Source: Gammaproteobacteria bacterium (lineage in GTDB: Bacteria > Pseudomonadota > Gammaproteobacteria > Eutrophobiales > Eutrophobiaceae). From it: a stretch of DNA of 64,000 bases. Both the position numbers and the translations under genes were made by a program. Shown in pieces: positions 41,554 through 62,197 of this stretch. The stretch lies in NCBI GenBank assembly GCA_041984885.1, contig JBHIXH010000001.1, forward strand, positions 50,365-114,364, written 5' to 3'. Positions within the stretch are counted from its first letter, which is position 1. Each line of letters opens with the position of its first letter. The notes beneath the pieces were generated by a model. That model saw nothing but the letters and a program-made list of their open reading frames with translations. It was not told where the DNA came from and did not search any database.

Positions 41554-41556
41554 AAA

Positions 41557-43675: not shown

Positions 43676-43677
43676 GC

Positions 43678-46146: not shown

Positions 46147-46158
46147 AATAGACAGTCG

Positions 46159-46539
46159 TTACCAATGCCAGACCTGGTCATAACGCTCGAACAGGGAAGG
46201 TAATTGGTCGCGCCTGACGTACCTGATTCCACCGATGTGTTCGCGCTGGCTCAACCCCCTGCTTTTCAGGTCTTCCTGCAAGACAAATATTTCCACCCCC
46301 TTGTCGGCGAGCTTGATTAGGCCGCCCTCGATATCCGTTGGCTGCGTCTGCTTCCAGGTGCCGAATTGCAACAGCGGAGGTTGCTGCTGGACCAGGACAT
46401 AATTAACGGCATTGCCGGTAAGCAACACGGAGATGTCCGCCTCGATGCCACGCATGGCATGGGTAAGCCAGATAATTGTATCGTCCTGCTCTTCCAACGT
46501 GCCGCGATAGGCCGTTTCTACTACCTGTAAAGCGCGCAT
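46159..46539 (-). CDS. DsrE/DsrF/DsrH (TusBCD)-like small protein, third gene of triplet
   Basis: 126 aa. Size, position and composition are consistent with the third (DsrH/TusB-like) member. Assignment is tentative. Confidence 0.4.
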   Translation of the reverse strand: MRALQVVETAYRGTLEEQDDTIIWLTHAMRGIEADISVLLTGNAVNYVLVQQQPPLLQFGTWKQTQPTDIEGGLIKLADKGVEIFVLQEDLKSRGLSQREHIGGIRYVRRDQLPSLFERYDQVWHW

Positions 46540-46541
46540 GG

Positions 46542-46997
46542 TTATCTCGTTCCTATTACCAGCGAGTTAACCGATGCTGATGCCAGTTTCCAGAAATCGG
46601 CCGGCGAACCGCGTCTGACACCAGGCACGGTCTCATCGATACCTCTCTCGTCGGCACACAATCCGCAGTTCACCCACTCAATCTGTCCATTGTTCTGCCT
46701 GGCAAGTTGTAGTAATTCACTCACCCATTCTTTAGGAAGCGGGTGGTTCTCTTCCTCCCGCGTGGTGCCATGAACTGCGTTCGCATGCGGTTTTTGCTTG
46801 TTAAAAGAGAGGTGCACGCCACCTTCGTAGGCAAACACGTTGATGTGGTATCCGCGTGCTGCGGCAACGTGGAGGAGTCTGAAAAACGAGGTGGTACGTG
46901 CACTCTCGAAAGGCGGGTCCATTATTGCAAAGGTCAATGTGGTTTGTTTATTCATCACCACTAGTGCCATATTGTTTTTGTGCCTTCTGCAAGGCAA
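46542..46997 (-). CDS. DsrE/DsrF-like family protein, second gene of triplet
   Basis: About 140 aa if started at the Met at 46970 (MALVVMNK...). DsrE-like alpha/beta pattern with conserved Cys (NCGLC). Confidence 0.5.
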   Translation of the reverse strand: MPCRRHKNNMALVVMNKQTTLTFAIMDPPFESARTTSFFRLLHVAAARGYHINVFAYEGGVHLSFNKQKPHANAVHGTTREEENHPLPKEWVSELLQLARQNNGQIEWVNCGLCADERGIDETVPGVRRGSPADFWKLASASVNSLVIGTR

Positions 46998-47287
46998 TCA
47001 ATAATTTTATCTATCGCAGATAGACGTATATTTTTTTTCAGATCAACTTTCCCGATGGCACGCTCTTTTGCAGAAAAGTCATCTACTTCAATGTGTATGC
47101 CCTGCCGTATTAACGTCGCAAACGTACGGTTAATAGAACTTTTACGCGCAGGAAACACACCATTCTGTATCAAAAACAGCCTGACCGAGTGGCCGCCGTT
47201 TTTCAGGTTGATTGCAAGGCGATAAAAGTTTTCTGTCTCCCTGCATTCGAATGGATCTCTTGATGAGATCAGCATGTATCGACTCAA
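46961..47287 (-). CDS. DsrE/DsrF-like family protein, first gene of triplet
   Basis: 108 aa. N-terminal MLISSRDPF...LAINLKNGGHSVRLFLIQNGV resembles DsrE/TusD-like proteins. Overlaps the cysI stop by 4 nt. Confidence 0.5.
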   Translation of the reverse strand: MSRYMLISSRDPFECRETENFYRLAINLKNGGHSVRLFLIQNGVFPARKSSINRTFATLIRQGIHIEVDDFSAKERAIGKVDLKKNIRLSAIDKIIDCLAEGTKTIWH

Positions 47288-49041
47288 TGGTTTTCTCCCT
47301 TTTGCCTGTTCTTGAAATCGGGACCGCTGGTGACCGCCTCAACGTATCCCTGTCGTATGACGTAATCTCCAAACGCTTCATTTTCGAATCGTTCGTTTGC
47401 GTAGTTCACAATTATTGTTTCCAACTCGTTTAATATTTGTTCCTCCCCGATGTTTTCACGGTAGAGTCGCGACAGTCTTGTCCCGTTACACGCTCCACCC
47501 AGGTACAGGTTGTATTTACCCGGCGCTCTGCCGGTTAACCCGATTTCTGACAGGTACGGCCTCGAACAACTATTGGGACAACCACTCATACGGAGCGTAA
47601 TCGCCTGCTCAGCCAGGCCGTAATGCTTGAGCATCGCTTCGATTTTCGTGATGAGTACCGGCAGGTACCGTTCACTCTCGGCCATCGCCAGGCCACAGGT
47701 GGGAAACGCTACGCAGGCAATAGCATGTTGTCTGACCGGGCCCTGCTTCAGTCCATTATCGAGACGATACTTTTCCAGTATTTCCTCAATCTGCTGTTTT
47801 TGTTCTGCATGAACGCCGGCAATCATCATGTTTTGATTGGGTGTCAGTCGAAATTCACCGCTATGCACCGATGCCAGTTCGTGCAGGCCGGACATTAACC
47901 CGACACCGTCATGGTCCTTGATTCGTCCGTTTTCTACGAACAGCGTACAGTGCAGCCTGTTATCCTCGGCTTCTTGCCAGCCAGGCGTATCCGTGTTCTT
48001 TTCAAAATTAAAAGGTTTTGATTGCGCAAGGGTGATGCCCGTTCTGGCTTCCAGTTCAGACTTGAACCAGGCCAGACCATTATTTTGAATGGTGTATTTA
48101 AAACGCGCCTGTGCCCTGTCGACGCGATCACCATAGTCGCGTTGAATAGTCAGTGTTTCCCTCACCATGTCGAAGATCGCGCCTTTCTCGATATAACCCA
48201 GGACGTCGGCCAGCCTGGGATAGGTGGTCGGTACGCTATCGGTGTGACCCATACCACCACCAACGCAGACATTAAATCCACACAAGCGGTTGTTGCTCTG
48301 TATTGCGATAAATCCCAGGTCTTGTGAGAAAACGTCGATATCGTTTACCGGTGGCACCACGATTCCAATCTTGAATTTACGTGGCAGGTAAGTCGGACCG
48401 TACACTGGCTCTTCTTCCCCCGCCGTGTGTCCCGGCTCATCCAGCCAGGTCTCCGGGTAGGCACCTGTTTTCGGAATAAACTCGTTACTTATCTGCCTTG
48501 CAGTTGTATAAACTTCAGTGTGCAATCCGGACATGGCCGGGTTAACCGCACACATGACGCCCCTGGTATCGTCACCACACGCAGCAATGGTATCCAGGCC
48601 GACAGTCTGCAAGGACTGGATCACCGGTTTTAGATCCTGTTTCGGGACCTTGTGCAATTGAAAGGTCTGCCTGGTAGTAATACGTAATGCGTCGTCTGCA
48701 TGTCGTCCGGCAATCTCCATCAGTGCCAGTAACTGCCTTGCAGTGCATACGCCACCGGGTAACCGGATCCTGACCATGAACGTGTATTCAGGTTCCAGTT
48801 TCTGGTGTCGGCGCTCGTCGCGAATATCCCTGTCGTCCTGCTGATACATACCATGGAACTTGAGCAGTTTCGCATCTGTGTCCTTTACCGCGGCGGTTAC
48901 CGGGTCATGCAGACTCTCGGTAATGGAACCACGAAGATAGTTGCTCTGTTGCTTAAGCAATTCATCCGGGCTTAACTCACCGATTGGTCGGGATATATCC
49001 CTGCTACGGGCAGGCTTGTTGCTTTGGGAATTGGTCGTCAT
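47284..49041 (-). CDS. cysI: Sulfite reductase [NADPH] hemoprotein beta subunit
   Basis: 585 aa with a canonical CysI N-terminus (ESLHDPVT...LKFHGMYQQDDRDIR). Siroheme/4Fe-4S Cys motifs (CGDDTRG...; SGCPNSCS). Confidence 0.9.
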   Translation of the reverse strand: MTTNSQSNKPARSRDISRPIGELSPDELLKQQSNYLRGSITESLHDPVTAAVKDTDAKLLKFHGMYQQDDRDIRDERRHQKLEPEYTFMVRIRLPGGVCTARQLLALMEIAGRHADDALRITTRQTFQLHKVPKQDLKPVIQSLQTVGLDTIAACGDDTRGVMCAVNPAMSGLHTEVYTTARQISNEFIPKTGAYPETWLDEPGHTAGEEEPVYGPTYLPRKFKIGIVVPPVNDIDVFSQDLGFIAIQSNNRLCGFNVCVGGGMGHTDSVPTTYPRLADVLGYIEKGAIFDMVRETLTIQRDYGDRVDRAQARFKYTIQNNGLAWFKSELEARTGITLAQSKPFNFEKNTDTPGWQEAEDNRLHCTLFVENGRIKDHDGVGLMSGLHELASVHSGEFRLTPNQNMMIAGVHAEQKQQIEEILEKYRLDNGLKQGPVRQHAIACVAFPTCGLAMAESERYLPVLITKIEAMLKHYGLAEQAITLRMSGCPNSCSRPYLSEIGLTGRAPGKYNLYLGGACNGTRLSRLYRENIGEEQILNELETIIVNYANERFENEAFGDYVIRQGYVEAVTSGPDFKNRQKGENH

Positions 49042-49044
49042 GTC

Positions 49045-50907
49045 TCAGTACACATCCTTTTGATAGCGTTTCTGCCGGGACAATAATTTCAGGTATTCAG
49101 TTGCCTTTTCTTCGCTCAAGTCCGCCTCGTTGCTGATGATCTTTACCAGGGCCTGGTTGACATCCTTCGCCATGTGACTGGCATCACCACAGACATAAAT
49201 ACAGGCACCTTCCTGTAGCCAGTGGTAGATATCGCGGCCGTTTTCCAACAGCCGATGTTGGACATAGATCTTCTGTTTGCTATCACGGGAAAATGCGAGA
49301 CTGATACGGTGCAGGAAACCCATGCGTAACCATTGTTGCCACTCAACCTGGTACAGGAAATCTGATCGAAAGTTTCGCTCACCGAAAATGAGCCAGGATG
49401 GTCCGTGTTTCACACCAGTAGCCTCACGCTGCTGCAAAAAAGCACGATAAGGTGCGATACCGGTACCGGCCCCTATCATGATGATCGGGGTGGATGCATC
49501 CTCGGGGAGTCGAAAGTTATTATTGTTTTGAATATAAACTGCGGCCTGCTGCCCTTGCTCCAGTCCGCCACACAGGTAGGACGACGCTGCACCGAATCGC
49601 TGGCTGCCGTTTAACTCGTATTTGAGCCTTGCAACCGTGATATGAACCTCGTCCGCCACCATCTCCTGGCTGGATGCAATCGAGTACATTCTCGGTTGTA
49701 TCTTCCTCAGGCCGTTTACCAGTATCTCTGGCTGTATGTCAGCGACAGGATATTGCCGGATTACATCCAGGACGTGGTTTCTTGATGCAAACTCGAAGAA
49801 TTGCGCGCGCTTGTGCGGCAGGGACAGATCTTTCAGTAGTTCTGCCTTGCACAGTGAATACCATGTCTGCAGAAATTCCGGTGTCAGGATCGACAGTTCA
49901 TGGTCATGGGTCAGGCTATCTGCAATTGTCTTACCGTTGTCGGCCAGAGGTTGCGTGCCGTTAAATTTTAACTCGGTCAATATTTTATTGACCAGTCGCA
50001 CGTTATTAACAGGACGAACACCCAGCGCATCACCGGGCTTGTAGTTCAGGCCACTGCCGTCAAGTGAGAATTCGACATGCGCAACATGCTTCGTGGAGTG
50101 ACGGCCGGTAATCCTGATAATATCCAGAACCTCGGCTTCGAACGGTCGTCGCTTGTCATGAACCTTGTCTTTATCCCGCGAAACCTGTCCGGGTTCTGAA
50201 ACCTGTATGACAGGTGCGCTGATCCTGACAGCAGACGCAAACAGTTCCTTCAATCCTGACTTTATCGAGGCAAACCATTGTTCCGCTTGTTCATCATAGT
50301 CAACATCACAATCCAGCCTGGCTGCGACAGGTTTGCCACCTAGTTCACTAAAACGCCTGTCGAGTGTTTTTGCCGCCTCGCAAAAAAACTCGTAAGACGT
50401 ATCACCGAGACCCAGCACGGCATAGTGCAGGTGACCAAGAGCGGGTGCCTTGCGGCCTTCAAGTTCTTCAAAGAAGCCCCTCGCGGGTTCTGGCGGATCA
50501 CCATCGCCGTGTGTGCTGGTTATAGCGATAACACAGTGTTCCTGTTTCAGTTGTTGTACCTTGTAATCTTCAAGGTTATTGCAATTAACGGTATGACCTG
50601 CATCCCGCAATATCTCCGCCAGTTCTTCCGCCAGTTCTTCCGAGTTACCCGTTTCTGTTCCGTATAAAACTCGGATTGGCGGAGGCGCCTGTTGCACCAC
50701 TGCCTTATGTTTATCCGACATGCCCGCAACAGGCGTACTCTCCAACGCCGTTGCCCTGCAACGGGCCCAGCCGGCAAAGTAACCGCTGATCCACAGTGCT
50801 TCATCCGGTGACGTTTGCCTTGCCAACGTTTCAACCTGCTCGAGGATGTCATCCGCCAACACTGTCGCGGACAGATTGGCTACCGGCGTATCCATTACAG
50901 CGCCCAT
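49045..50907 (-). CDS. cysJ: Sulfite reductase [NADPH] flavoprotein alpha subunit
   Basis: Flavodoxin-like FMN domain, then FAD/NADPH domains (RMYSIASS...; IMIGAGTGIAPYRAF). 620 aa. Confidence 0.9.
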   Translation of the reverse strand: MGAVMDTPVANLSATVLADDILEQVETLARQTSPDEALWISGYFAGWARCRATALESTPVAGMSDKHKAVVQQAPPPIRVLYGTETGNSEELAEELAEILRDAGHTVNCNNLEDYKVQQLKQEHCVIAITSTHGDGDPPEPARGFFEELEGRKAPALGHLHYAVLGLGDTSYEFFCEAAKTLDRRFSELGGKPVAARLDCDVDYDEQAEQWFASIKSGLKELFASAVRISAPVIQVSEPGQVSRDKDKVHDKRRPFEAEVLDIIRITGRHSTKHVAHVEFSLDGSGLNYKPGDALGVRPVNNVRLVNKILTELKFNGTQPLADNGKTIADSLTHDHELSILTPEFLQTWYSLCKAELLKDLSLPHKRAQFFEFASRNHVLDVIRQYPVADIQPEILVNGLRKIQPRMYSIASSQEMVADEVHITVARLKYELNGSQRFGAASSYLCGGLEQGQQAAVYIQNNNNFRLPEDASTPIIMIGAGTGIAPYRAFLQQREATGVKHGPSWLIFGERNFRSDFLYQVEWQQWLRMGFLHRISLAFSRDSKQKIYVQHRLLENGRDIYHWLQEGACIYVCGDASHMAKDVNQALVKIISNEADLSEEKATEYLKLLSRQKRYQKDVY

Positions 50908-50923
50908 GCGAAGACAGCTTGCA

Positions 50924-51127
50924 TCAGGGGTTGAGTATGCTTAAAGCAACGGCATCCAAATCGTTTAACTTCTGCATCTTGAAGGCGGCTTTTGATGCAC
51001 CGCAGTAAGGACAGACCCAGTCCTTGGGGACATCCTCCCAGTGCGTGCCGGCCGGGATACCTTCATCGGGAATCCCCTTGTCCTCGTCGTAGATAAAATC
51101 ACACAATTCACAAACCCATATACTCAT
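50924..51127 (-). CDS. Rubredoxin
   Basis: The two CxxC knuckles (WVCELCDFIYDE...WVCPYCGA) are spaced exactly as in rubredoxins. Start set at the Met at 51127. Confidence 0.8.
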   Translation of the reverse strand: MSIWVCELCDFIYDEDKGIPDEGIPAGTHWEDVPKDWVCPYCGASKAAFKMQKLNDLDAVALSILNP

Positions 51128-51189
51128 CGACGTTCTCCTCGCTGTGTTTAACCCAAGCAAGGCTTTGTAGCCCGTGATCCAGTCTGATT

Positions 51190-51211
51190 ATTTGCTTTAT
51201 ATTAAGCAAAT
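51190..51211. promoter_or_regulatory. Palindromic LTTR-box-like site in the divergent rubredoxin-cysJI / lysR promoter region
   Basis: ATTTGCTT-TATATT-AAGCAAAT is a perfect 8-bp inverted repeat. It lies between the rubredoxin start and the LysR gene start. Confidence 0.35.
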
Positions 51212-51259
51212 AAATAATATTTATACTTAAGTTCAATTATTTCTATATTAAAAACGATC

Positions 51260-52120
51260 ATGGATATAGAAGTTGCTCGTACCTTTCTTGTGATCTCGTC
51301 GGCAGGTAGCTTCGTTCGTGCCGCCGAGCAATTACACCTGACCCAGACCGCGGTCACGGCCAGGATCAAGTCACTGGAAGAACAACTGGGTCGGACCCTG
51401 TTCGTGCGTAACAAGGCCGGGGCTAAATTGACACCTGCAGGGCAGGAGTTCATCAAATATGCAACTTCACTGGTCCAGATTTGGGAACGAGCGAGGCAAC
51501 AGGTCGCCGTTCCGCCCGGGCGACGCGCTATCGTTTCAGTCGGCGGTGAACTGAGCCTATGGAACCCGTTGTTGCTGAACTGGTTGGTGTACATCAGAAA
51601 GCAATCGCCAGATATCGCGATACGGGCACATGTTGATATACCGGAACGATTACTGGATAAAGTGCAGACCGGCATACTGGATGTGGCTGTGATTTATGAA
51701 CCGCAAAAACGTCCAGGTTTAAAAACCCGGTTGTTAATGGAAGAAAAACTGATTGCGGTCAGTACGGAACCGGGCACTACGGAGGTAGGTAATGCGGGTT
51801 ATGTATATATAGATTGGGGACAACAGTTCTCGACACACCACAACCATGCATTCCCACACCTCAGGGACACGGATATGCACGTTGGGCTCGGACCGTTGGC
51901 GTTAAGGTATATCCTGGCCATGGGCGGTAGCGGCTATTTCAGAGTACGGGCTGCAAAACCATACATGCAAAGAGGACGCCTGTTTCGTGTGGAGGGTGCA
52001 CCGGAGTACACATACTCGGCATACATGGTGATCTCTGATCATGCAGATGCAGAGGTAGTAAACATTGTTTACAACTCCTTAAGGACCGCTTCTTCTATTG
52101 AATATGAAGATTGGGTTTAG
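51260..52120 (+). CDS. LysR-family transcriptional regulator
   Basis: N-terminal HTH (FVRAAEQLHLTQTAVTARIKSLEEQLG) plus a LysR substrate-binding domain. Divergent from the rubredoxin-cysJI operon. Confidence 0.85.
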   Translation: MDIEVARTFLVISSAGSFVRAAEQLHLTQTAVTARIKSLEEQLGRTLFVRNKAGAKLTPAGQEFIKYATSLVQIWERARQQVAVPPGRRAIVSVGGELSLWNPLLLNWLVYIRKQSPDIAIRAHVDIPERLLDKVQTGILDVAVIYEPQKRPGLKTRLLMEEKLIAVSTEPGTTEVGNAGYVYIDWGQQFSTHHNHAFPHLRDTDMHVGLGPLALRYILAMGGSGYFRVRAAKPYMQRGRLFRVEGAPEYTYSAYMVISDHADAEVVNIVYNSLRTASSIEYEDWV

Positions 52121-52251
52121 AAATGAATTTTTTATTCTGTTGCTGAAATTTCATACACATATAGATACGAATCAAAGTGACTATTTTAAAATCAAGAAAA
52201 TTCGAACTGAAGCTGGGCCCGAAGGGGTGGAGTACCTGGATGTATGGAATC

Positions 52252-52273
52252 ATCCTCTACCCCCAGCCAATTT
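52252..52273 (+). repeat. Third, short att-like copy of the tRNA-Gln 3' end
   Basis: ATCCTCTACCCCCAGCCA+ATTT is 18 nt identical to the tRNA 3' end. The ~196 bp flank that follows is the same as after att copy 2. Confidence 0.6.
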
Positions 52274-53627
52274 AAACGGTTTCTCTCAGCTTCACCGCTT
52301 TAACCCTGCCTTTCATTTTCTTCTGGGGTAATGATGCCGCGGTTGAAGTTTTATGATCACAGGCAACCTGATCCATTTCACCACTTAGCGGATTCCAGAA
52401 TTTGATTTCACGCTCCTGCTTGATCGTGACCGGCTGAAGTATGTACTCATCTCGCCGGGCATTGTATTCACACATGGAAACCGGGCCGGACGGTGTCATG
52501 TTCTTAAAGACGCAGGCATCCAGACGTTCCTGATCCAGGTTGCAGGCGTCCATAAAATTATGCACAAAAAAAGACAGGCTGCTTGCCTTGCCTCTGGCGC
52601 GGTATAAATCTGCGCGCATTTGTAGCAGTTTTGATACTGACCACTTGATAAATTCCAGCGCCTGCAGCGGGTGTCGAATCAGCCAGGCAGATAACTGCAG
52701 CGCCGTGGTGAAGGCGCGGTTTCGATCCGCAACAATATTGCGTGTCTCTGCCTGCATACGACCGGTGAAGTCGGCATCGTCAAACAGGTTATAACATCGA
52801 TCATTGGTCACGACTGTCATGCCATAACGGTTGCACTGCGGATGACCGGTGCGTATCGCACGAAAATTGATCTCGGTACCGGCGACCTGTTCTATTTTCT
52901 GCCAGACGGTATCTGTACTGATGATCGTATCGCGCTGACGCTGTACTCCGCGACCGGTGTCTGCCTGCAATTGAAACGACGCCGTACGTATGTTCTGTGC
53001 ATGTTCGATAAAAAATCGTACCAGCTGTGGAATCTCGTGGAAGTTTTCGCGACAGACCGTCGTATTAAACACGACGGACAGGCCAAGTCCCCGCGTGCGA
53101 TTAATGTATTCACTACGAATCCGGTTCAACGCCTGCTCGCTGTTATAACCTTTACGTTCCTGCGTCAGGTCGACATGAAATGCGACGTCATTCAGCCCGG
53201 CCCTGGCAAGACGTTGTAACAGGGGTCGGGTCGCGCGAATGCCGTTCGTCATTAATGTTGAACGCATGTTGTTGCGTCTGATGTAGTCAATGATCTCGAC
53301 CAGCTCATCCTGATCTCGTAATGTCGGATCACCGCCGGTCACCTGGATATCCGTGTAGTCCCCGTAATATTGATGGATGCGGTCGATGCGTTTGAATATC
53401 TCCTGCAGCGGAATGTCATGCACCGCCTCGGAATGATCGGACAAGTAACACAGGGTGCAATCAAGGTTGCAGCGCTGCGTTATTTCCAGTGCCACGCAAC
53501 CGACGGACCAGCGTAATCCCATCTGCTGATTAGGTGAACAAAGCCCTTGTTGTTGCATCACCTGTCGGGCTTTTTTAAGGCTGAGTTCAGGGTTCATGGT
53601 CCCGGCTACGACTGACATTCTGTTCAT
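52272..53627 (-). CDS. Radical SAM protein with C-terminal Cys-rich (SPASM/twitch-like) domain
   Basis: CNLDCTLCY (CxxxCxxC) motif, GGDPTL (GGEP-like) motif, and 6-7 additional Cys in the C-terminal third. Overlaps the DUF547 gene by 4 nt. Confidence 0.8.
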   Translation of the reverse strand: MNRMSVVAGTMNPELSLKKARQVMQQQGLCSPNQQMGLRWSVGCVALEITQRCNLDCTLCYLSDHSEAVHDIPLQEIFKRIDRIHQYYGDYTDIQVTGGDPTLRDQDELVEIIDYIRRNNMRSTLMTNGIRATRPLLQRLARAGLNDVAFHVDLTQERKGYNSEQALNRIRSEYINRTRGLGLSVVFNTTVCRENFHEIPQLVRFFIEHAQNIRTASFQLQADTGRGVQRQRDTIISTDTVWQKIEQVAGTEINFRAIRTGHPQCNRYGMTVVTNDRCYNLFDDADFTGRMQAETRNIVADRNRAFTTALQLSAWLIRHPLQALEFIKWSVSKLLQMRADLYRARGKASSLSFFVHNFMDACNLDQERLDACVFKNMTPSGPVSMCEYNARRDEYILQPVTIKQEREIKFWNPLSGEMDQVACDHKTSTAASLPQKKMKGRVKAVKLRETV

Positions 53628-54427
53628 TCCCGGGTTCTGATGTCGTTCAGTGCCCAGTCATAATCAAGGAACCGCACTCTCACCCGGGTGAAGCTCCCCT
53701 GCTTGCTGGACTTCAGTTGTTTTTGTAATTCGGCATTATCGGTTATGTAGGGTGCGACCCAGGCTTCAACGGAACCGGCGGCGGTATCAAAGTCCTTTCG
53801 ATACCAGTTAAAAATGGACGATAACTCAAGTTGCTGCTTTTTCCTGTCAAAACGATTACGTTCAGGATCAGTGAGAAACAACCTGGTAGCATGTTCCAGT
53901 TGATCATTTAATGTGTCAGCGACGTAGGCCTGTTTTATCAGTGGCGGACAACCACGTGAGGCACAGTTCACGGCAAAATGAATTCTTGGCTCATTGAAGT
54001 TGTCACGTATCAGATCATGTTCAACATAATCCAGGTTCGCTGGCTCGCCAAACAGCGTGAAAAATTTCCTGTCCCACGGTGAGGAGAAGATCAGTCCGCC
54101 CAGATCCCGAATGGAATCGATTTCCGGATAGTTATCGATGATTAATTTTAATGTCAGTGCGTTATACGTATTAATCAAAAATGCCAGCCGCTGGTTATCA
54201 TTCCATTGATTGAACTCAGCCTCACTCACCGCTTCGATCTGTTTAATGTAAGCGAGCAACTGATTCGGGTTCGCTGCCAGCGTTGAATAATCAACCGAGG
54301 TTTGATGGCCATGTTCAACAACAACACGCTGCAATAGCTGATTGAACTCCGCGTGGGAATGGTCGAATGCGAATACAGACTGGATGCCAAAACCAATAAC
54401 AAGCAGGCACCTGCACAGATAAGACAA
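53624..54427 (-). CDS. DUF547 domain protein with signal peptide
   Basis: 267 aa with a hydrophobic N-terminus. Central region contains a CASRGCP motif. Co-transcribed with the radical SAM gene. Confidence 0.6.
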   Translation of the reverse strand: MSYLCRCLLVIGFGIQSVFAFDHSHAEFNQLLQRVVVEHGHQTSVDYSTLAANPNQLLAYIKQIEAVSEAEFNQWNDNQRLAFLINTYNALTLKLIIDNYPEIDSIRDLGGLIFSSPWDRKFFTLFGEPANLDYVEHDLIRDNFNEPRIHFAVNCASRGCPPLIKQAYVADTLNDQLEHATRLFLTDPERNRFDRKKQQLELSSIFNWYRKDFDTAAGSVEAWVAPYITDNAELQKQLKSSKQGSFTRVRVRFLDYDWALNDIRTRE

Positions 54428-54655
54428 GGAATCTCTCCCCCCTCGTGACTGATGAGCATTATGACCAGTGCCTGCCTGCCCGGTTCAGTACGAAGCCATT
54501 TCTGTTGCAAGACAACCCGCCGGAGAATTGCTGCAAAACATCGCAGGCTTGGCTAGGATATAGTTGAAAGAATGAGAATAATGGCTAAAGTCCCTGCCCG
54601 ATATTCCGTTATATAACTGATTACAAAAAATAATTTTTCAACCAAGGAAACGAAA

Positions 54656-56296
54656 ATGAAAGCGAGTGACCTGTTTGTGCAGTGCCTGGAAAACGAGGGT
54701 GTCAAATACGTGCTCGGCGTGCCAGGCGAGGAAAACCTCGACATGCTGGAGTCGATTCGCAACTCGAACCTGGAACTGGTATTGACCCGGCATGAACAAT
54801 CCGCCGGCTTCATGGCAGCAACGATCGGACGCTTGACCGGTTCTCCGGGTGTCTGCATGTCAACGCTCGGACCCGGCGCTACCAATTTCGTCACCGCTGC
54901 CGCCTACGCCCAACTTGGCGCGATGCCGATGTGCATGATCACCGGACAAAAGCCGGTGCACTCGAGCAAACAGGGACATTTTCAGATCATTGATACGGTC
55001 GACATGATGCGACCCATTACCAAATACACCAAGCAACTCGGCCACGGTAACCGCATACCTTTTGTGATTCGCGAAGCGTTCAAGATTTCCGAGGAGGAAC
55101 GACCCGGCGCCGTGCATATTGAATTACCCGAGGACGTGGCCAGCGAGGATACACATACCGATCCGATTCCGATATTCAAGGTACGGCGACCGGATGCAAA
55201 TGACAAGGCAGTACGTATCGCAGTAGATATGATCCAACAGGCGAAATCGCCATTGATACTGATCGGTGCCGGCGCGAATCGTAAACGTGTATCTAAAATG
55301 CTTTGTCAGCTCATTGATAAAACCGGCATCCCTTTCTTCCTGACGCAAATGGGCAAAGGCGTGATTGCCGAAGACCATGACCTGTGCCTTGGCACGGCTG
55401 CATTATCTGACAAGGATTATTTGCACTGTGCGGTTGAGCGCGCTGACCTGATTATCAATGTGGGTCATGACGTGATTGAAAAACCACCGTTCTTTATGGA
55501 GCAAGATGGTGCCAGGGTCATTCATGTGAATTACGTCGATGCGAGTGTTGACGAAGTCTATTTTCCACAACACGAAGTCATCGGTGATATCGCCAACGCA
55601 CTCTGGCAGATTTCGGAATCGATTGAAAAACAGGGTCACTGGGACTTTGACTACTTCCTGCGCGTCAAGCAGTTTGTTGATAAAAAAATCGCAGAAAAGA
55701 ACGATGACGACCGCTTTCCGATTATTCCGCAGCGACTGGTTGCCGATGTTCGTTCAGTCATGGGCCGCGAAGATATTATTGCTCTCGATAATGGTATTTA
55801 TAAAGTCTGGTTCGCACGCAACTATCGCGCGCTCGCGCCAAATACAGTATTGCTCGACAACGCCCTGGCGACAATGGGTGCCGGGCTGCCTTCCGCCATG
55901 GCGGCAAAAATGATTTTTCCTGACAGGAAGGTGCTGGCTATCTGTGGCGATGGCGGGTTCATGATGAACAGTCAGGAACTGGAAACGGCCGTGCGCATGC
56001 AACAGGATCTGGTAGTGTTGATTCTTAATGACAGTTCGTACGGTATGATCCGCTGGAAACAACAGGGCATGGGGTTCGCGGATTTTGGTCTGGAATACAA
56101 TAACCCTGACTTTATCAAGTACGTTGAAAGCTATGGCGGTCATGGACATCGAATCGAATCGACCAATCAGCTATTGACGACGCTGGAAAAGACCCTGAAC
56201 TCACCGGGCGTACACCTGATCGATTGTCCGGTTGATTATTCAGAAAATACAAAAGTCCTGACGGAAGAACTTGAATCAAAGAAAGTCATTGAATAA
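54656..56296 (+). CDS. Thiamine-pyrophosphate enzyme, acetolactate synthase large-subunit-like
   Basis: N-terminal TPP-Pyr domain. The TPP-binding motif GDGGF...N is near the C-terminus (ICGDGGFMMNSQELETAV). Confidence 0.8.
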   Translation: MKASDLFVQCLENEGVKYVLGVPGEENLDMLESIRNSNLELVLTRHEQSAGFMAATIGRLTGSPGVCMSTLGPGATNFVTAAAYAQLGAMPMCMITGQKPVHSSKQGHFQIIDTVDMMRPITKYTKQLGHGNRIPFVIREAFKISEEERPGAVHIELPEDVASEDTHTDPIPIFKVRRPDANDKAVRIAVDMIQQAKSPLILIGAGANRKRVSKMLCQLIDKTGIPFFLTQMGKGVIAEDHDLCLGTAALSDKDYLHCAVERADLIINVGHDVIEKPPFFMEQDGARVIHVNYVDASVDEVYFPQHEVIGDIANALWQISESIEKQGHWDFDYFLRVKQFVDKKIAEKNDDDRFPIIPQRLVADVRSVMGREDIIALDNGIYKVWFARNYRALAPNTVLLDNALATMGAGLPSAMAAKMIFPDRKVLAICGDGGFMMNSQELETAVRMQQDLVVLILNDSSYGMIRWKQQGMGFADFGLEYNNPDFIKYVESYGGHGHRIESTNQLLTTLEKTLNSPGVHLIDCPVDYSENTKVLTEELESKKVIE

Positions 56297-58085: not shown

Positions 58086-58352
58086 ATGGCAGGTGGTTGG
58101 TCAAAAGACGGGGCCGTACAGGACCAGATAGATGCGAGTATTGATGACGCCGTCAAGCTGGCTCGCAGTCGCATTACGCATGGTGAAAGCGAAACGCATT
58201 GTATCGAGTGTGGTGAGGCGATCCCCGAAGCACGCCGCCAGGCGATCGCCGGTGTGCGGCTATGTGTCGATTGTCAGTCCGAGCAGGACGCCCACCAGGA
58301 AGCGCATGCCCTGTTTAACCGACGTGGCAGTAAAGACAGCCAGTTAAGATAA
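58086..58352 (+). CDS. TraR/DksA-family C4 zinc-finger protein
   Basis: CIECGEAIPEARRQAIAGVRLCVDC carries the CxxC-N17-CxxC zinc finger typical of this family. Confidence 0.7.
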   Translation: MAGGWSKDGAVQDQIDASIDDAVKLARSRITHGESETHCIECGEAIPEARRQAIAGVRLCVDCQSEQDAHQEAHALFNRRGSKDSQLR

Positions 58353-60248
58353 TACGGCGTGCCTGACTGTCCCGGGCAACCCAGTCTGTGCCTGCAGGCT
58401 GGCCAGAAACTGTTCCGCCCGCTCCTTGCCCATGTATTTATTCAGTATCTGTCGTTCTGTCTCGCGTAAATCGACCAGTATCAATCCATCGACCACATTA
58501 TTAAAATCCGGATCAATATTGAAACCGACAAACTTGCCACCCAGTTTTAAATACTGTTTCACGAGGACCGGTATCCCTTTTTTATCGTTCTCCAGTTCAG
58601 ATACGATATCCGAGACCAGGCTGAGATCATCGATCGCACTCATTTCCTGTTTAATCCAGGCATCCTTGCGTTTGCTGCGGTACGGCCGTCGGGGCTTCAC
58701 CAATGCAGACAGGGTATTCTCAAAGTTATTCAGGGTCAGGCAATCGACAATCAAATGCCGGGACAGGATTTCATAGTCCTTGCTGATACTGACCGGTCCA
58801 AATAACACCGGACATTTTCCATGACGGACAACAAAAATGCCTATACCTTTCCAGAGCAGGTTTAAAGCGCTGAAACTTTTCTGGTATTCAGCCCGGACAA
58901 ACGAACGTCCTACTTCTATCGCGCAAGACAGTAACGGTAAAATTTTCTTTTTATATTTAAATAACGAATACGTATACAACCCCTTACGACCAAAGCGCGG
59001 CAGAATATCCTGCACGACACCGAGTCGATAGGCGCCGACAATTTCCTGCTTTTCCCGGTGCCATAAAAATAAATGATGGTAGTAGGAATCATATAAATCG
59101 ATATCGGTTGACTTGCCGGTGCCTTCACCGACCTGACGAAAAGTAATTTCTCGCAACCGGCCGATTTCCTGCAATAGCAATGGTGACTGATCGGCAGTTG
59201 TAGAAAAAATTTGAAACTCGCCCGATTCAGTCAGGCAACTGGATTCGGGTAACGCGGCCACCTCGGCCTGCAACGCTGTTTTCGCTATCGCCGTCTGTAC
59301 CGGCTGCGAATGCTGTTGTGATTTTCTGATTAATTCAGGCAAGACCGGTCTGGTATCACCCGAAGATATATTTCGCAGGAGGTAGGTTCTGAAGCGTAGA
59401 TAACGCACCACTTTCTCCGCCGTGTCCAGACGTTTTAAAGTCGTCCACTGGATATTCTGTCCAAGGCGTAACTGGATCGTACTGTCCTGTTTCCTGATTA
59501 ACTCCCACGGTAGCAGGCAGGTGCGTAGCAACGGATGTACCATGCCGGCATTTTGAAACGTCAAACTGTTGCGACCATGAAAATAGACCGGTAACACGGA
59601 CGCCTGTGACATCTGCACCAGTTTGCCTATGGTTTTGCTCCAGACCGGATCCGTAACGCGTTGTTGTTGCATCGACCAGGAAGAGACTTCGCCGGCAGGA
59701 AATGTGACGATCACTCCACCCTGTTGTAACCAGCGTACGCTGTCACGCAGTGGACGCAGATTTTTTTCAGTGGATGCGCTGGTACCGAAAGGATCGACAG
59801 AAATCAGGATTTTTCTTAGCCCCGGCAAACGTCCCAGAAAATAATTACCCAGTACCCGCACATCATCACGCTGGCTACAGATAATTAACGTCAGAATGAT
59901 GCCATCGATCGCACCAAACGGATGATTCGCGACCACGACAAGTGGTCCCGACTTTGGAATCTGTTCGAGTGCATTAATATTTAACGAATAGCGAACCTGC
60001 AGGCAATCGAGAATGTGTTCAAGAAAATCCGTCACCTTGTTCGACTTGGGTAACTGGCGATATTTTCCTGCCAGGTAATCAAGCCCGGTCAGCACTTCCA
60101 GGCAACGCTCAAGAATGCCACTCACCGGTTTCAATCGGGTGTTGGCAAAAGCACCGCTCAAGCTGAATGGTTGTTCTTCAATTTCGTGCGTATTGTCCAT
60201 CAACGGATGTTTCAGTCTGATTTCGAGAAATTCTGGCCAGGTTGCCAA
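58344..60248 (-). CDS. Bifunctional acyltransferase (PlsC-like O-acyltransferase N-domain + OlsB/GNAT-like N-acyltransferase C-domain; OlsF-like)
   Basis: The N-domain has the HxxxxD motif (NHPFGAIDG) and FPAGEVS. The C-domain has an OlsB-like DxYDxxxxHL motif (DIDLYDSYYHHLFLW). Confidence 0.55.
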   Translation of the reverse strand: MATWPEFLEIRLKHPLMDNTHEIEEQPFSLSGAFANTRLKPVSGILERCLEVLTGLDYLAGKYRQLPKSNKVTDFLEHILDCLQVRYSLNINALEQIPKSGPLVVVANHPFGAIDGIILTLIICSQRDDVRVLGNYFLGRLPGLRKILISVDPFGTSASTEKNLRPLRDSVRWLQQGGVIVTFPAGEVSSWSMQQQRVTDPVWSKTIGKLVQMSQASVLPVYFHGRNSLTFQNAGMVHPLLRTCLLPWELIRKQDSTIQLRLGQNIQWTTLKRLDTAEKVVRYLRFRTYLLRNISSGDTRPVLPELIRKSQQHSQPVQTAIAKTALQAEVAALPESSCLTESGEFQIFSTTADQSPLLLQEIGRLREITFRQVGEGTGKSTDIDLYDSYYHHLFLWHREKQEIVGAYRLGVVQDILPRFGRKGLYTYSLFKYKKKILPLLSCAIEVGRSFVRAEYQKSFSALNLLWKGIGIFVVRHGKCPVLFGPVSISKDYEILSRHLIVDCLTLNNFENTLSALVKPRRPYRSKRKDAWIKQEMSAIDDLSLVSDIVSELENDKKGIPVLVKQYLKLGGKFVGFNIDPDFNNVVDGLILVDLRETERQILNKYMGKERAEQFLASLQAQTGLPGTVRHAVLS

Positions 60249-61221
60249 GAAAACACCTGGCGGAACTGTCCCAGGTGTAGGTGCGTGCGTATTGAATACA
60301 ATCTTCCGGCTTCAGCTTTAATGCGGCTTCCACCGCTGGCAGCAGGTCCTCGTTGAGGACGCCGGTTTCACCCTGCTTCACCACATCAATCGGTCCGGTT
60401 ACCGGGTAGGCCGCGACCGGCACACCACACGCCATGGCCTCGATCAGGACAATCCCGAACGTATCGGTCCTGCTGGGAAAGACAAAGACATCAGACGCAG
60501 CGATGTGCGCTGCCAGTTCCTCTCCGAATTTAAAGCCGGTAAATACAGCATCCGGATATGTCTGTTTCAGTTTATCCAGATCCGGGCCATCGCCTATAAC
60601 CAGCTTTGTCCCGGGCAGCTCCAGGTCGAGGAATGCCGCGATATTTTTCTCGACTGCGACTCGTCCGACGTACACTGAAATCGGTCTGCGAAAATCAAGA
60701 TATGCCTTATCCCCCGGTTTGAAAATTTCTGAATTGACGCCGCGCGACCAGATGTTCACGTTTTTAAATCCACGCTGTATTAACAACTCACGCATATAAT
60801 TCGTTGGCACCAGGGTTCGTTCTGCGGCCTTGTGAAAATTTCTTACCATGCGATAGCTGAGAGACAGCGGCACCGGGATACGCGCTTTGACATACTCCGG
60901 GAATTGCGTGTGATAAGACGTGGTGAATGGCAGTTTCTGTTTCAGGCAGTATTTACGGGCGGCCTGCCCAACCGGACCTTCGGTGGCAACATGTATCGCA
61001 TCCGGCTCAATCTCATCCAGTTGCTGGCTGACACCGCGGTAGGGAAACAGGGCGAGTCTTATCGATGGATAGGAAGGACAGGGCATCGTGTTGAACTGCC
61101 CGGGATGAATGATATGCACGTCATGGCCAAAGCCGGTGAGCTCGCATTGCATGTTTTCATAGGTTCGAACAACACCATTTACCTGTGGCTGCCAGGCATC
61201 GGTCGCGATTACTATTTTCAT
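60178..61221 (-). CDS. Glycosyltransferase family 4
   Basis: GT-B fold with the EX7E-type C-terminal motif region (FVFPSRTDTFGIVLIEAMACGVPV). The start at 61221 forms an ATGA overlap with the upstream gene's stop. Confidence 0.75.
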   Translation of the reverse strand: MKIVIATDAWQPQVNGVVRTYENMQCELTGFGHDVHIIHPGQFNTMPCPSYPSIRLALFPYRGVSQQLDEIEPDAIHVATEGPVGQAARKYCLKQKLPFTTSYHTQFPEYVKARIPVPLSLSYRMVRNFHKAAERTLVPTNYMRELLIQRGFKNVNIWSRGVNSEIFKPGDKAYLDFRRPISVYVGRVAVEKNIAAFLDLELPGTKLVIGDGPDLDKLKQTYPDAVFTGFKFGEELAAHIAASDVFVFPSRTDTFGIVLIEAMACGVPVAAYPVTGPIDVVKQGETGVLNEDLLPAVEAALKLKPEDCIQYARTYTWDSSARCFLGNLARISRNQTETSVDGQYARN

Positions 61222-62009: not shown

Positions 62010-62197
62010 TGCGCACCACGTCGTCGTGAATTCGGGCGCAAGTCTCATTCACTTATATGACAGATCTGTGCTATTTACATGACATTTTCGTTAAAAATTC
62101 CTGTTTTATTTACAAATACGGAAAGTTAATCGATTAATAAGGCCGTAATATTCGCGCCCTAGACTGAACAACCCGATAAGGAAATGGACGACAAAAC

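What the first reader, a model, noticed from the sequence alone, without database searches (positions are those of the whole stretch)
52272..54427. SPASM-like radical SAM enzyme operonic with a secreted DUF547 protein, function unknown, at an integration hotspot
The radical SAM protein has CxxxCxxC, a GGDPTL (GGEP-like) motif and a C-terminal cluster of ≥6 Cys. That architecture suggests auxiliary Fe-S clusters, as in peptide- or cofactor-modifying SPASM/twitch enzymes. It overlaps (ATGA) a DUF547 protein with a signal peptide and a CASRGCP motif. No precursor peptide is obvious. The pairing is not a textbook system and sits immediately beside att copy 3.
Basis: inference. Interest (0 to 1): 0.6.

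Follow-up and report, generated by a model that had tools for sequence, protein, structure and literature searches.

The report
Tes-like radical SAM enzyme with DUF547 partner
Two overlapping genes encode a radical SAM enzyme that resembles the archaeal tetraether-lipid synthase (not a SPASM peptide maturase) and an exported DUF547 protein; the two sit together in almost all related bacteria and are often linked to "arsenosugar" genes, but nobody has tested what they do.

Summary
A 267-aa DUF547 gene (54427-53624, minus strand) overlaps by ATGA a 451-aa radical SAM gene (53627-52272). The radical SAM stop codon abuts a 21-nt copy of the tRNA-Gln 3' end.

The "SPASM-like" reading fails: there is no SPASM or twitch hit even at E<=10. 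The closest relatives are TrsS and Tes/GDGT-MAS. The only strong structural match is GDGT-MAS (Foldseek E 1e-15, 403 columns). The protein lacks the two N-terminal metal domains of Tes but keeps its C-terminal cluster motif (invariant C265, H356, M359, C372, C386, plus C44).

A DUF547 gene lies next to the radical SAM gene in 74 of 80 related genome loci, and only 3 loci with enough flank lack it. All the DUF547 partners look exported, with a signal peptide or a lipobox. Natural fusions exist: radical SAM-DUF547, and TIGR04283 glycosyltransferase-radical SAM. In 25 of 80 loci, ArsS, ArsM, TIGR04282/3 or a DedA-flavoreductase lies nearby. None of these is in this window.

Best reading: a compact Tes-like enzyme that modifies a membrane lipid, working with an extracytoplasmic DUF547 thiol protein. 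It is an uncharacterised variant of a known enzyme kind. The substrate is inferred, not shown.

The parts
53624..54427 (-). DUF547 gene (267 aa, TTG start), 'type A' subfamily. It is the first gene of the two-gene operon.
   Evidence: ORF. Pfam PF04784 scores 88.1 bits against a cut-off of 27. It has 5427 homologues. It clusters with the DUF547 copies of ArsS/TIGR04283 clusters. The AF2 model has pLDDT 92, and Foldseek finds no PDB match below E=3.
54368..54427 (-). Predicted Sec signal peptide of DUF547 (residues 1-20, MSYLCRCLLVIGFGIQSVFA). Cleavage would occur before the conserved FDHxH.
   Evidence: A hydrophobic N-terminus followed by invariant F21 and near-invariant D22 and H25 is seen in 25 aligned homologues. 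This is inferred from sequence only; no signal-peptide predictor was run.
53945..53965 (-). CASRGCP motif (C155-x4-C160-P161), the invariant Cys pair of DUF547.
   Evidence: C155, A156, C160 and P161 are invariant in A2. CxxxxC is present in all 160 type A and type B copies examined.
52272..53627 (-). Radical SAM gene (451 aa), a Tes/TrsS-like family. It is the second gene of the operon and overlaps the DUF547 stop by ATGA.
   Evidence: ORF. PF04055 scores 65.9 bits. NCBIfam best hits are TrsS at 128.5 bits (cut-off 490) and Tes at 105 bits (cut-off 450). The Foldseek top hit is 7TOL/7TOM GDGT-MAS at E 1e-15 over 403 columns.
53448..53471 (-). CX3CX2C motif (C53, C57, C60), the ligands of the radical SAM [4Fe-4S] cluster.
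   Evidence: Read from the sequence. Invariant in 145 family members.
53319..53336 (-). GGDPTL (residues 98-103), the GGE-type SAM-binding motif.
   Evidence: Read from the sequence. G98 and G99 are invariant and position 100 is D or E in 136 close members.
52470..52562 (-). C-terminal auxiliary-cluster motif H356-N-F-M359-D-A ... C372 ... C386, probably completed by C265 (52833-52835).
   Evidence: All these residues are invariant or nearly so in 145 members. HMMER aligns C372 and C386 with Tes C455 and C470, and H356 with Tes Met439, the labile ligand of [4Fe-4S]C.
53496..53498 (-). C44, a seventh invariant Cys, 9 residues before the CX3CX2C motif. Its role is unknown.
   Evidence: Conserved in 144 of 145 members.
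52252..52272 (+). att copy 3: 21 nt identical to the last 18 nt of tRNA-Gln plus the 3 nt that follow it. It abuts the radical SAM stop codon.
52252..52468 (+). A 217-nt direct repeat, 97% identical to 41309-41525. It covers the att core plus the last ~65 codons of the radical SAM gene.
   Evidence: Family D1 of the repeat finder. Alignment. Copy 2 still reads as ...ARRDEYILQPVTIKQ...KLRESV*.

Best explanation
This is a conserved two-gene module. The second gene encodes a cytoplasmic radical SAM enzyme that is a stripped-down relative of the archaeal tetraether lipid synthase Tes/GDGT-MAS. It has the radical SAM core plus a C-terminal domain carrying one auxiliary [4Fe-4S] cluster (C265, C372, C386 plus H356 or M359). 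It lacks the rubredoxin and N-terminal cluster domains of Tes.

By analogy with Tes, it would cleave SAM, abstract a hydrogen from an unactivated carbon of a hydrophobic chain held in a tunnel, park the radical on the auxiliary cluster, and form a new C-C or C-heteroatom bond.

The first gene encodes an exported DUF547 protein with an invariant CxxxxC pair. It would handle the same membrane-embedded molecule, or supply or remove a thiol-bound group, on the periplasmic side. A membrane lipid is the obvious substrate that a cytoplasmic enzyme and an exported partner can share.

In many lineages the module is part of a larger cluster: ArsS, ArsM-like, TIGR04282, TIGR04283, a DedA-flavoprotein disulfide reductase, MauE/DoxX and a chalcone-isomerase-like protein. 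That points to (arseno)glycolipid or other lipid chemistry. In this window's lineage only the two-gene core remains.

Shown: the anatomy, the homology, the conservation, the fusions and the neighbourhoods. Inferred: the cluster ligands, the export of DUF547, the lipid substrate and the reaction.
For: - Homology: the radical SAM core motifs are invariant. The best profile hits are TrsS and Tes.
- Structure: the AF2 model (pLDDT 83) matches GDGT-MAS 7TOL/7TOM at E 1e-15 over 403 columns. The next hit is at 7.6e-08 and covers only the core.
- Sequence profile: the family profile hits 7TOL at 1.2e-24, including the C-terminal FMDA...C...C motif.
- Pairing: a DUF547 gene is adjacent in 74 of 80 genome loci across Pseudomonadota, Acidobacteriota and Bdellovibrionota, with only 3 informative exceptions.
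- Coupling: genes overlap or lie within 10 nt in both gene orders.
- Export: the type A copies have signal peptides. Of 68 type B copies, 61 have a hydrophobic N-terminus and 34 have a lipobox.
- Fusions: P0243 is radical SAM, then a lipobox-like linker, then DUF547. P0249 is a TIGR04283 glycosyltransferase (230 bits against a cut-off of 182) fused to the radical SAM domain.
- Neighbours: MauE/DoxX in 29 loci, chalcone-isomerase-like in 13 loci, and ArsS/ArsM/TIGR04282/3/DedA-reductase in 25 of 80 loci.
- Annotation: PGAP-annotated examples in Burkholderia thailandensis and Roseomonas plasmids show the same neighbours.
- Tes precedent: Tes binds lipids in hydrophobic pockets beside the C-terminal cluster and uses that cluster to hold the substrate radical (PMC9433317; PMC13459092).
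Against: - No experiment exists for any member. PGAP calls the protein only 'radical SAM protein'.
- Similarity to Tes is distant: 21-22% identity, 105 bits against a cut-off of 450. Two of Tes's four metal domains are missing, so the chemistry may differ.
- The Tes Met439 ligand aligns with His here, and the third Cys ligand is assigned by conservation only. I could not inspect model coordinates.
- Export of DUF547 is inferred from sequence only.
- The lipid substrate rests on analogy and on the compartment argument.
- No lipid gene is consistently adjacent in the window's own clade.
- A single fusion protein could be a gene-calling artefact.
Confidence: 0.5

Rival explanations
1. The pair is a dedicated step of organoarsenical biosynthesis (arsenosugar phospholipid, or arsenic-containing fatty acid or hydrocarbon). 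The Tes-like enzyme would join a lipid chain to a methylated arsenic species or an arsenosugar. DUF547 would bind or shuttle As(III) through its Cys pair.
For: - ArsS (TIGR04167, 457.7 bits against a cut-off of 300), ArsM-like methyltransferases, TIGR04283, TIGR04282 or a DedA-flavoreductase lie within 6 kb in 25 of 80 loci.
- The window's DUF547 belongs to the type A clade. That clade is a core gene of the cluster ArsS - DedA/FAD reductase - DUF547 - TIGR04283 - TIGR04282, seen in 57 of 80 metagenome loci.
- A TIGR04283-radical SAM fusion exists.
- arsS lies 2 kb upstream of the pair in B. thailandensis.
Against: - None of these genes occurs in the 64-kb window, nor within 10 kb in four loci of the window's clade.
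- I believe, from memory, that the 'arsenosugar' names of TIGR04282/3 rest on gene association with ArsS rather than on biochemistry.
- In the reverse test, the type A DUF547 of those clusters had no adjacent Tes-like radical SAM gene in any of 80 loci. The two systems are therefore separable.
Confidence: 0.2
2. It is a true bacterial Tes orthologue that makes membrane-spanning lipids (brGDGT or diabolic-acid type) by tail-to-tail coupling.
For: - JGI annotates many close homologues as 'tetraether lipid synthase'.
- The fold and the C-terminal motif match GDGT-MAS.
- Bacterial Tes homologues in Acidobacteria and Proteobacteria have been proposed as brGDGT synthases (PMC8941075).
Against: - It scores 105 bits against the Tes cut-off of 450, and only residues 20-255 match.
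- It lacks the rubredoxin and [4Fe-4S]N domains.
- Tyr459 and Met439, which are completely conserved in 1000 archaeal homologues, are not kept.
- From my own knowledge, the host groups (aerobic gamma- and betaproteobacteria, Bdellovibrio) are not known to make membrane-spanning lipids.
- An obligate exported DUF547 partner is not reported in the Tes papers read here.
Confidence: 0.12
3. It is a SPASM/twitch radical SAM maturase acting on a ribosomal peptide or a cofactor.
For: - There are extra conserved Cys beyond the CX3CX2C motif.
- There are weak NCBIfam hits to PqqE, NirJ, MoaA and SPASM maturases.
Against: - Those hits cover only the radical SAM core (residues ~45-250) at 30-64 bits against cut-offs of 265-650.
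- There is no SPASM or PqqD/RRE hit at E<=10.
- No conserved small ORF lies in or beside the operon.
- The conserved partner is a 267-aa exported protein, not a peptide.
Confidence: 0.04
4. It is a viperin-like or other defence gene carried by the adjacent genomic island.
For: - PADLOC pVip models hit at 51.7 bits.
- The gene abuts an att site.
Against: - The pVip hit is core-only (residues 45-219), and DUF547 has no PADLOC hit.
- The pair has core-genome GC and lies outside the island.
- In relatives it sits in ordinary chromosomal contexts.
Confidence: 0.02

Closest known systems
Tes / GDGT-MAS (tetraether lipid synthase; MJ0619, PDB 7TOL/7TOM; NCBIfam NF045702)
   Same: - Radical SAM core.
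- Overall fold: Foldseek E 1e-15, 403 aligned columns, TM 0.55.
- A C-terminal domain with the xFMDA...C...C motif that carries the [4Fe-4S]C cluster in Tes.
- Two long helices (residues 302-343) before that motif. These may correspond to the amphipathic helices of the second lipid pocket in Tes; I did not map the correspondence.
   Different: - Only 21-22% identity, and 105 bits against a cut-off of 450.
- About 45 residues shorter at the N-terminus, with no rubredoxin-like Fe site (C9, C12, C33, H36) and no [4Fe-4S]N (C73, C77, C80).
- His356 replaces the labile Met439, and Tyr459 is not kept.
- There is an extra invariant C44.
- Always paired with an exported DUF547 protein.
- Bacterial hosts that, from my own knowledge, are not known to make tetraethers.
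TrsS, radical SAM (seleno)protein (NCBIfam NF045646; Haft & Tolstoy 2025, cited in PMC13188914)
   Same: It is the best profile match, and the match covers nearly the whole protein (residues 26-390 on model positions 74-431, 128.5 bits).
   Different: - It is far below the cut-off of 490, so this protein is not a member.
- The paper describing TrsS was not available, so its gene context and any DUF547 link could not be compared.
ArsS / TIGR04282 / TIGR04283 'arsenosugar biosynthesis' gene cluster
   Same: - It shares a core DUF547 (type A) with the window's gene.
- It is physically linked to the radical SAM-DUF547 pair in 25 of 80 loci and on the Burkholderia and Roseomonas plasmids.
- One natural TIGR04283-radical SAM fusion exists.
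   Different: - ArsS is a different radical SAM family, about 300-330 aa.
- None of the cluster's genes is in this window.
- Most such clusters lack the Tes-like enzyme (0 of 80).
SPASM/twitch radical SAM maturases (PqqE, sactipeptide and other RiPP maturases; anSME is recalled from memory, not tested)
   Same: The radical SAM core, and the presence of an additional Cys-ligated cluster.
   Different: - No SPASM or twitch motif and no model hit.
- No peptide substrate gene.
- The C-terminal domain is Tes-type.

Membership tests
Radical SAM superfamily (PF04055) | CX3CX2C cluster motif and a Pfam score at or above the gathering threshold of 29.5. | tested here: met
   C53-x3-C57-x2-C60 is present and PF04055 scores 65.9 bits. 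The motif is invariant in 145 homologues.
SPASM / twitch subfamily (PF13186, TIGR04085) | A C-terminal Cys-rich SPASM or twitch domain detectable by profile. | tested here: not met
   There is no SPASM hit in Pfam even at E<=10. NCBIfam SPASM-family hits stop near residue 250 and fall far below their cut-offs. Only 3 of the 7 C-terminal Cys are conserved.
RiPP maturase system | A precursor peptide gene and/or an RRE (PqqD-like) domain beside the enzyme. | tested here: not met
   No candidate small ORF was seen in 52100-54660; conservation of small ORFs in relatives was not tested. There is no PqqD/RRE hit. Only DUF547 is a conserved neighbour.
Tes / GDGT-MAS (NF045702) | A whole-protein score at or above the curated cut-off of 450 bits. 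| tested here: not met
   The score is 105 bits, and only residues 20-255 match model positions 68-303.
Tes / GDGT-MAS | An N-terminal rubredoxin-like Fe site (C9X2C12X20C33X2H36) and an N-terminal [4Fe-4S] cluster (C73, C77, C80 plus His). | tested here: not met
   The family starts about 45 residues later relative to the CX3CX2C motif. The only conserved upstream Cys is C44.
Tes / GDGT-MAS | A C-terminal [4Fe-4S] cluster domain with 3 Cys plus the labile Met439. | tested here: inconclusive
   C372 and C386 align with Tes C455 and C470, and FMDA is shared. Met439 aligns with the invariant His356, with M359 three residues later. The third Cys (C265) is assigned by conservation only. Model coordinates could not be inspected.
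Tes / GDGT-MAS | The overall fold. | tested here: met
   Foldseek against the PDB puts 7TOL/7TOM at ranks 1-2, with E 1e-15, 403 columns and TMq 0.56 / 0.55. The next hit is at 7.6e-08.
Tes / GDGT-MAS | C-C coupling of lipid tails, with a bound lipid substrate. | not testable with these tools
   This needs lipidomics or enzyme assays.
TrsS (NF045646) | A whole-protein score at or above the curated cut-off of 490 bits. | tested here: not met
   The score is 128.5 bits.
DUF547 (PF04784) | A Pfam score at or above the gathering threshold of 27. | tested here: met
   The score is 88.1 bits over residues 73-185. The CxxxxC pair is invariant.
ArsS-type 'arsenosugar biosynthesis' cluster | ArsS (TIGR04167), TIGR04282 and TIGR04283 genes in the same neighbourhood. 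| tested here: not met
   tblastn of representatives against the whole window at E<=1e-10 gave no hit. The feature is met in 25 of 80 related loci, but not in the four loci of the window's own clade.
tRNA-targeted integrative island (for the 'hotspot' claim) | Direct repeats of the tRNA 3' end flanking a segment of deviant composition that carries an integrase. | tested here: met
   tRNA-Gln lies at 22793-22866, and its last 50 nt, plus 14 nt of downstream flank, are repeated at 41278-41341 (92%). The segment between has GC 0.30-0.43. A tyrosine integrase lies at 39920-41125. The third, 21-nt copy at 52252 has no integrase of its own.

The most novel reading that the evidence does not exclude
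The Tes-like enzyme could be the missing lipid-arsenic (or lipid-arsenosugar) coupling enzyme of arsenolipid biosynthesis. It would generate a radical on a lipid tail, as Tes does, and capture it with a methylated arsenic species or arsenosugar instead of a second tail. The exported DUF547 protein would be an As(III)- or thiol-handling partner. This would give DUF547, a domain also found in plants and animals, its first biochemical role.
Probability: 0.1. Interest if true: 0.85.

Novelty: new variant of a known kind. Interest (0 to 1): 0.55.

Why it matters
Tes/GDGT-MAS is one of the few enzymes known to couple two unactivated sp3 carbons. It does so with four metal centres.

A widespread bacterial family keeps only the radical SAM cluster and the C-terminal cluster: more than 3400 hits in the word-indexed search, and 232 clusters at 50% identity with E<=1e-30. 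It would show which parts of that machinery are essential and what other bonds it can make.

The almost obligatory pairing with exported DUF547 proteins gives the first concrete, testable context for a domain of unknown function that is also present in plants and animals.

The recurrent linkage to ArsS, ArsM and TIGR04282/3 genes offers candidate genes for the lipid part of organoarsenical biosynthesis. I found no paper assigning genes to that step.

Homologues sit on plasmids of culturable Burkholderia thailandensis and B. glumae, so genetics and lipidomics are feasible.

For this particular window, the instance is an ordinary member of the family.

Tried and rejected
**Rejected readings**
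- SPASM/twitch reading: Pfam at E<=0.01 and at E<=10 found nothing beyond Radical_SAM and Fer4_12.
- Precursor-peptide search: ORFs of at least 20 aa in 52100-54660 showed nothing plausible. The promoter and terminator scan was no better than shuffles.
- Defence reading: PADLOC gave only generic viperin-core hits.

**DUF547 fold**
- Foldseek against the PDB found no match below E=3.

**Source organism**
- The exact protein P0001 is not on record in the contig index.
- The cluster look-up gave no accession or organism.
- The best genome relatives are only 57-59% identical.

**TrsS context**
- The paper that defines TrsS (Haft & Tolstoy 2025) is not held.
- Second-tier relatives from the representative search did not reach any NCBIfam cut-off.

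**Literature**
- No paper contains both DUF547 and radical SAM.
- The 26 DUF547 papers listed (of 28) are, by title, about plants or mention it incidentally; I did not open them.
- Nothing substantive was found on TIGR04282/3 or on arsenolipid genes.

**Other dead ends and corrections**
- Reverse neighbourhood test: searching with the DUF547 profile in metagenomes returned only the ArsS-cluster paralogues. None had the radical SAM gene. This was informative, but it did not sample the window's own sub-clade.
- My first ORF-based neighbour clustering produced antisense shadow ORFs in high-GC loci (clusters 2 and 3). I replaced it with tblastn and HMM checks.
- Model coordinates are not exposed, so Cys-Cys distances could not be measured.
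Full report
**1. What is there**

The minus strand carries two ORFs. One is 54427-53624 (267 aa, TTG start behind GGAGAG). The other is 53627-52272 (451 aa). The sequence GAATGAACAGAATG shows that the stop of the first ORF and the ATG of the second overlap as ATGA.

Pfam assigns DUF547 (88.1 bits) to the first ORF. It assigns Radical_SAM (65.9 bits) plus Fer4_12 to the second.

The GC content of the pair (about 0.49) equals that of the surrounding core genes. The flanking genes are a divergent acetolactate synthase large subunit (NF006187, 882 bits) on one side and a LysR regulator, rubredoxin and CysJ/CysI on the other.

**2. The radical SAM protein is not SPASM-like; it is Tes-like**

No SPASM or twitch model hits, even at E<=10. 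In NCBIfam the two best hits are TrsS and Tes. TrsS (NF045646) scores 128.5 bits, covering residues 26-390. Tes (NF045702), the tetraether lipid synthase, scores 105 bits over residues 20-255. Both are far below their cut-offs of 490 and 450. All other hits (MoaA, NirJ, PqqE, SPASM maturases, viperin) cover only the core.

An AF2 model built on 23 homologues (pLDDT 83, pTM 0.85) finds GDGT-MAS (7TOL/7TOM) as by far the best PDB match. That match has E 1e-15, 403 aligned columns and TM about 0.55. The next hit is at 7.6e-08 and aligns only about 230 columns. A profile of the family hits the 7TOL sequence at 1.2e-24, and a second segment aligns the C-terminal motif.

Tes has four metal sites (PMC9433317, PMC13459092):
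- a rubredoxin-like Fe (C9, C12, C33, H36);
- [4Fe-4S]N (C73, C77, C80 plus His);
- the radical SAM cluster (Cys102 and Cys105 named; C98 inferred from the motif);
- [4Fe-4S]C (3 Cys plus the labile Met439).

Here the polypeptide begins about 45 residues closer to the CX3CX2C motif. The only conserved upstream Cys is C44, so the first two sites are absent. Using the 20-residue tag offset fixed by Cys102 and Cys105, our C372 and C386 align with Tes C455 and C470. Our invariant H356 aligns with Met439, and M359 follows within the shared FMDA.

Across 145 full-length family members, the following are invariant or nearly so: C44, C53, C57, C60, H262, C265, H356, F358, M359, R368, C372, C386 and N389. 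The other five Cys of the window protein are not conserved.

I therefore read the protein as a two-cluster, compact relative of Tes. It is not a member of the Tes or TrsS equivalogs.

**3. The DUF547 protein**

All 25 aligned close homologues start with a hydrophobic segment that ends in a small-x-small site. This is followed directly by the conserved FDHxH, which is the pattern of a cleaved Sec signal peptide (inferred). C155 and C160 are invariant.

**4. Is the pair conserved?**

A scan of one genome per species returned 568 loci encoding relatives, and the best 80 were kept. tblastn found a DUF547 gene next to the radical SAM gene in 72 of them. An HMM recovered two more that were cut by contig ends. 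Of the remaining six, three are truncated right after the radical SAM gene. Only L009 (Photobacterium alginatilyticum), L012 and L047 have room and lack DUF547.

The hosts span Gamma-, Beta- and Alphaproteobacteria, Acidobacteriota and Bdellovibrionota. There are also MAGs labelled Deltaproteobacteria, Oligoflexia and (one) Actinomycetes.

There are two DUF547 clades:
- Type A is window-like, 40-60% identical, and lies upstream.
- Type B is about 30% identical and lies immediately downstream of the radical SAM gene in most lineages.

L038, L042 and L064 carry A - radical SAM - B. Type B proteins are mostly lipoproteins or signal-peptide proteins: 61 of 68 have a hydrophobic N-terminus and 34 of 68 have a lipobox.

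In the window's own clade the unit is the bare two-gene operon DUF547 then radical SAM, with 1-9 nt between the genes. It sits in unrelated contexts (L081, L162, L163, L164). The absence of a type B gene here is therefore not a result of the nearby integration events.

**5. Wider context**

Several genes recur near the pair in the 80 loci:
- a MauE/DoxX membrane protein (PF07291), in 29 loci;
- a chalcone-isomerase-like protein (PF16036), in 13 loci;
- in 25 loci, at least one of ArsS (TIGR04167, 457.7 bits), an ArsM-like methyltransferase, TIGR04283, TIGR04282, or a VTT/DedA domain fused to a pyridine-nucleotide disulfide reductase.

The representative search (8583 hits at E<=1e-3; 232 at E<=1e-30) revealed two fusions:
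- P0243 is the radical SAM domain, then the linker ...AAALAGCAVL..., then DUF547.
- P0249 is a TIGR04283 glycosyltransferase (230 bits against a cut-off of 182) followed by the radical SAM domain.

The reverse test used the DUF547 profile against metagenome contigs. It returned 80 type A genes (39-51% identical). None had the radical SAM gene beside it. In 57 of the 80, at least one gene of the cluster ArsS - DedA/FAD reductase - DUF547 - TIGR04283 - TIGR04282 (- ArsM) lies beside it.

So DUF547 type A is a core gene of that cluster, and the Tes-like enzyme is an accessory that travels with a DUF547 of one type or the other.

PGAP-annotated plasmids confirm the picture:
- B. thailandensis p2002721643 has arsS - hypothetical - YiiX-like hydrolase - radical SAM - DUF547 (4-nt overlap).
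- Roseomonas p546-1 has TIGR04282 - DUF547 - radical SAM - a second radical SAM. Nearby on the other strand it has chalcone isomerase - MauE/DoxX - DUF547 - FAD oxidoreductase - VTT.

None of these accessory genes is in the 64-kb window.

**6. Mechanism**

Shown:
- a radical SAM core;
- a Tes-type C-terminal domain with conserved candidate cluster ligands;
- obligatory genetic coupling to a DUF547 protein whose N-terminus looks like an export signal;
- fusions and neighbourhoods.

Inferred:
- The enzyme binds two [4Fe-4S] clusters.
- It abstracts a hydrogen from a hydrophobic chain and uses the second cluster to hold the radical, as Tes does.
- It forms a C-C or C-heteroatom bond.
- Because the enzyme must be cytoplasmic and its partner is extracytoplasmic, the shared substrate is most simply a membrane lipid, or a lipid-linked intermediate that crosses the membrane.
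- DedA/VTT proteins, a GT2 glycosyltransferase and a chalcone-isomerase-like (fatty-acid-binding-type) protein in the extended cluster fit lipid chemistry. This last point rests on my general knowledge of those families.
- The CxxxxC pair of DUF547, together with MauE/DoxX and sometimes CcdA/thioredoxin neighbours, suggests thiol redox or metalloid binding.

I put about 0.5 on the lipid-modifying reading. Within it, I put about 0.2 on a specific organoarsenical role and about 0.12 on true membrane-spanning-lipid synthesis.

**7. The att site**

tRNA-Gln lies at 22793-22866. Its last 50 nt, plus 14 nt of downstream flank, recur at 41278-41341, and its last 18 nt (plus 3 nt) recur at 52252-52272.

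Between the first two copies lies a low-GC island (GC 0.30-0.43). It carries a CusA/CusB/OMP-type efflux operon (22944-28683), a second ~1030-aa ORF operon (30759-36401) that was not scanned, a MerC-like gene, and a tyrosine integrase at 39920-41125.

A 217-nt repeat (41309-41525 = 52252-52468, 97%) extends from the att core through the last ~65 codons of the radical SAM gene. A dead 3' fragment of the gene therefore sits at copy 2. The 10.7 kb between copies 2 and 3 holds ordinary-looking genes (NnrS, ApbA, NMO, DsrE, CysI/J, rubredoxin, LysR) and no integrase. I could not reconstruct the order of events. The pair itself is flank, not cargo.

**8. Verdict**

It is wrong on the enzyme class: Tes-like, not SPASM-like.

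The system is a new variant of a known kind of enzyme, with an unexplained and nearly universal DUF547 partner. It is a good lead for the family as a whole. The copy in this window is an ordinary member.

Noticed in passing
window 41309-41525 and 52252-52468: A 217-nt direct repeat (97%) joins the tRNA-Gln-derived att core to the last ~65 codons of the radical SAM gene. Copy 2 is a dead 3' fragment of the gene that still reads ...ARRDEYILQPVTIKQ...KLRESV*. This implies that tRNA-Gln once lay tail-to-tail with the radical SAM gene, or that an incoming element carried this flank. The order of events is unresolved.
   Followed up: partly
window 22867-41277: A low-GC island (GC 0.30-0.43) sits between tRNA-Gln and its 64-nt repeat (the last 50 nt of the tRNA plus flank). 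One operon (22944-28683) was confirmed as CusA/CusB/OMP-type metal efflux. A second operon of similar ORF sizes (30759-36401) was not scanned. The island also carries a MerC-like protein (29528-30283) and a tyrosine integrase (39920-41125) next to the right-hand repeat.
   Followed up: partly
window 41526-52250: The segment between att copies 2 and 3 has core-like GC and no integrase. It holds NnrS, ketopantoate-reductase-like, 5-FTHF cyclo-ligase, NMO+DUF6306, DsrE-like, CysI, CysJ, rubredoxin and LysR genes. It is odd for a stretch bounded by att-like repeats to look like ordinary chromosome.
   Followed up: partly
window 50924-51160: A stand-alone rubredoxin gene lies 1.1 kb from the radical SAM gene, which lacks the rubredoxin-like domain that Tes has fused. 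It is separated by the LysR gene and the att copy, and is not conserved near the pair in relatives (a CDGSH Fe-S protein sits upstream in L081). The proximity is probably coincidental.
   Followed up: partly
window 58344-62048: Lipid-type genes lie 4 kb from the pair: a 634-aa fusion of a PlsC-like acyltransferase with an Acetyltransf_5 (OlsB-type N-acyltransferase) domain, then a GT4 glycosyltransferase and a metallophosphoesterase. No link to the pair was tested.
   Followed up: no
P0243 and P0249 (from the representative search): Two natural fusions were found. One is radical SAM + lipobox-like linker + DUF547 (656 aa). The other is a TIGR04283 glycosyltransferase + radical SAM (712 aa). 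Each is a single cluster representative, so a gene-calling artefact is not excluded.
   Followed up: partly
L009 (Photobacterium alginatilyticum P03D4), L012, L047: These are the only loci with enough flank in which the radical SAM gene has no DUF547 neighbour. They could show whether the partner can be encoded elsewhere or is dispensable.
   Followed up: no
L165 (B. thailandensis p2002721643) and 47 Burkholderia plasmid records: The module is plasmid-borne in B. thailandensis and B. glumae. In L165 it lies next to Tn3 and IS5 transposases, with CcdA and thioredoxin genes beside arsS. So it is mobile in other lineages and available in culturable strains.
   Followed up: partly
window 53616-53627: A public annotation (P0001, 448 aa) starts the radical SAM protein at the second ATG (M4) rather than at the ATG that overlaps the DUF547 stop. 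Either start keeps the genes within 5 nt of each other.
   Followed up: yes
DUF547 residues 21-25 (window 54353-54367): If the signal peptide is cleaved after VFA, the mature protein would start F-D-H-S-H. His at position 3 fits the amino-terminal Cu/Ni-binding (ATCUN) pattern, as I recall it from general knowledge. FDHxH is conserved in type A copies. It was not compared in type B copies, whose N-termini mostly carry a lipobox instead.
   Followed up: no
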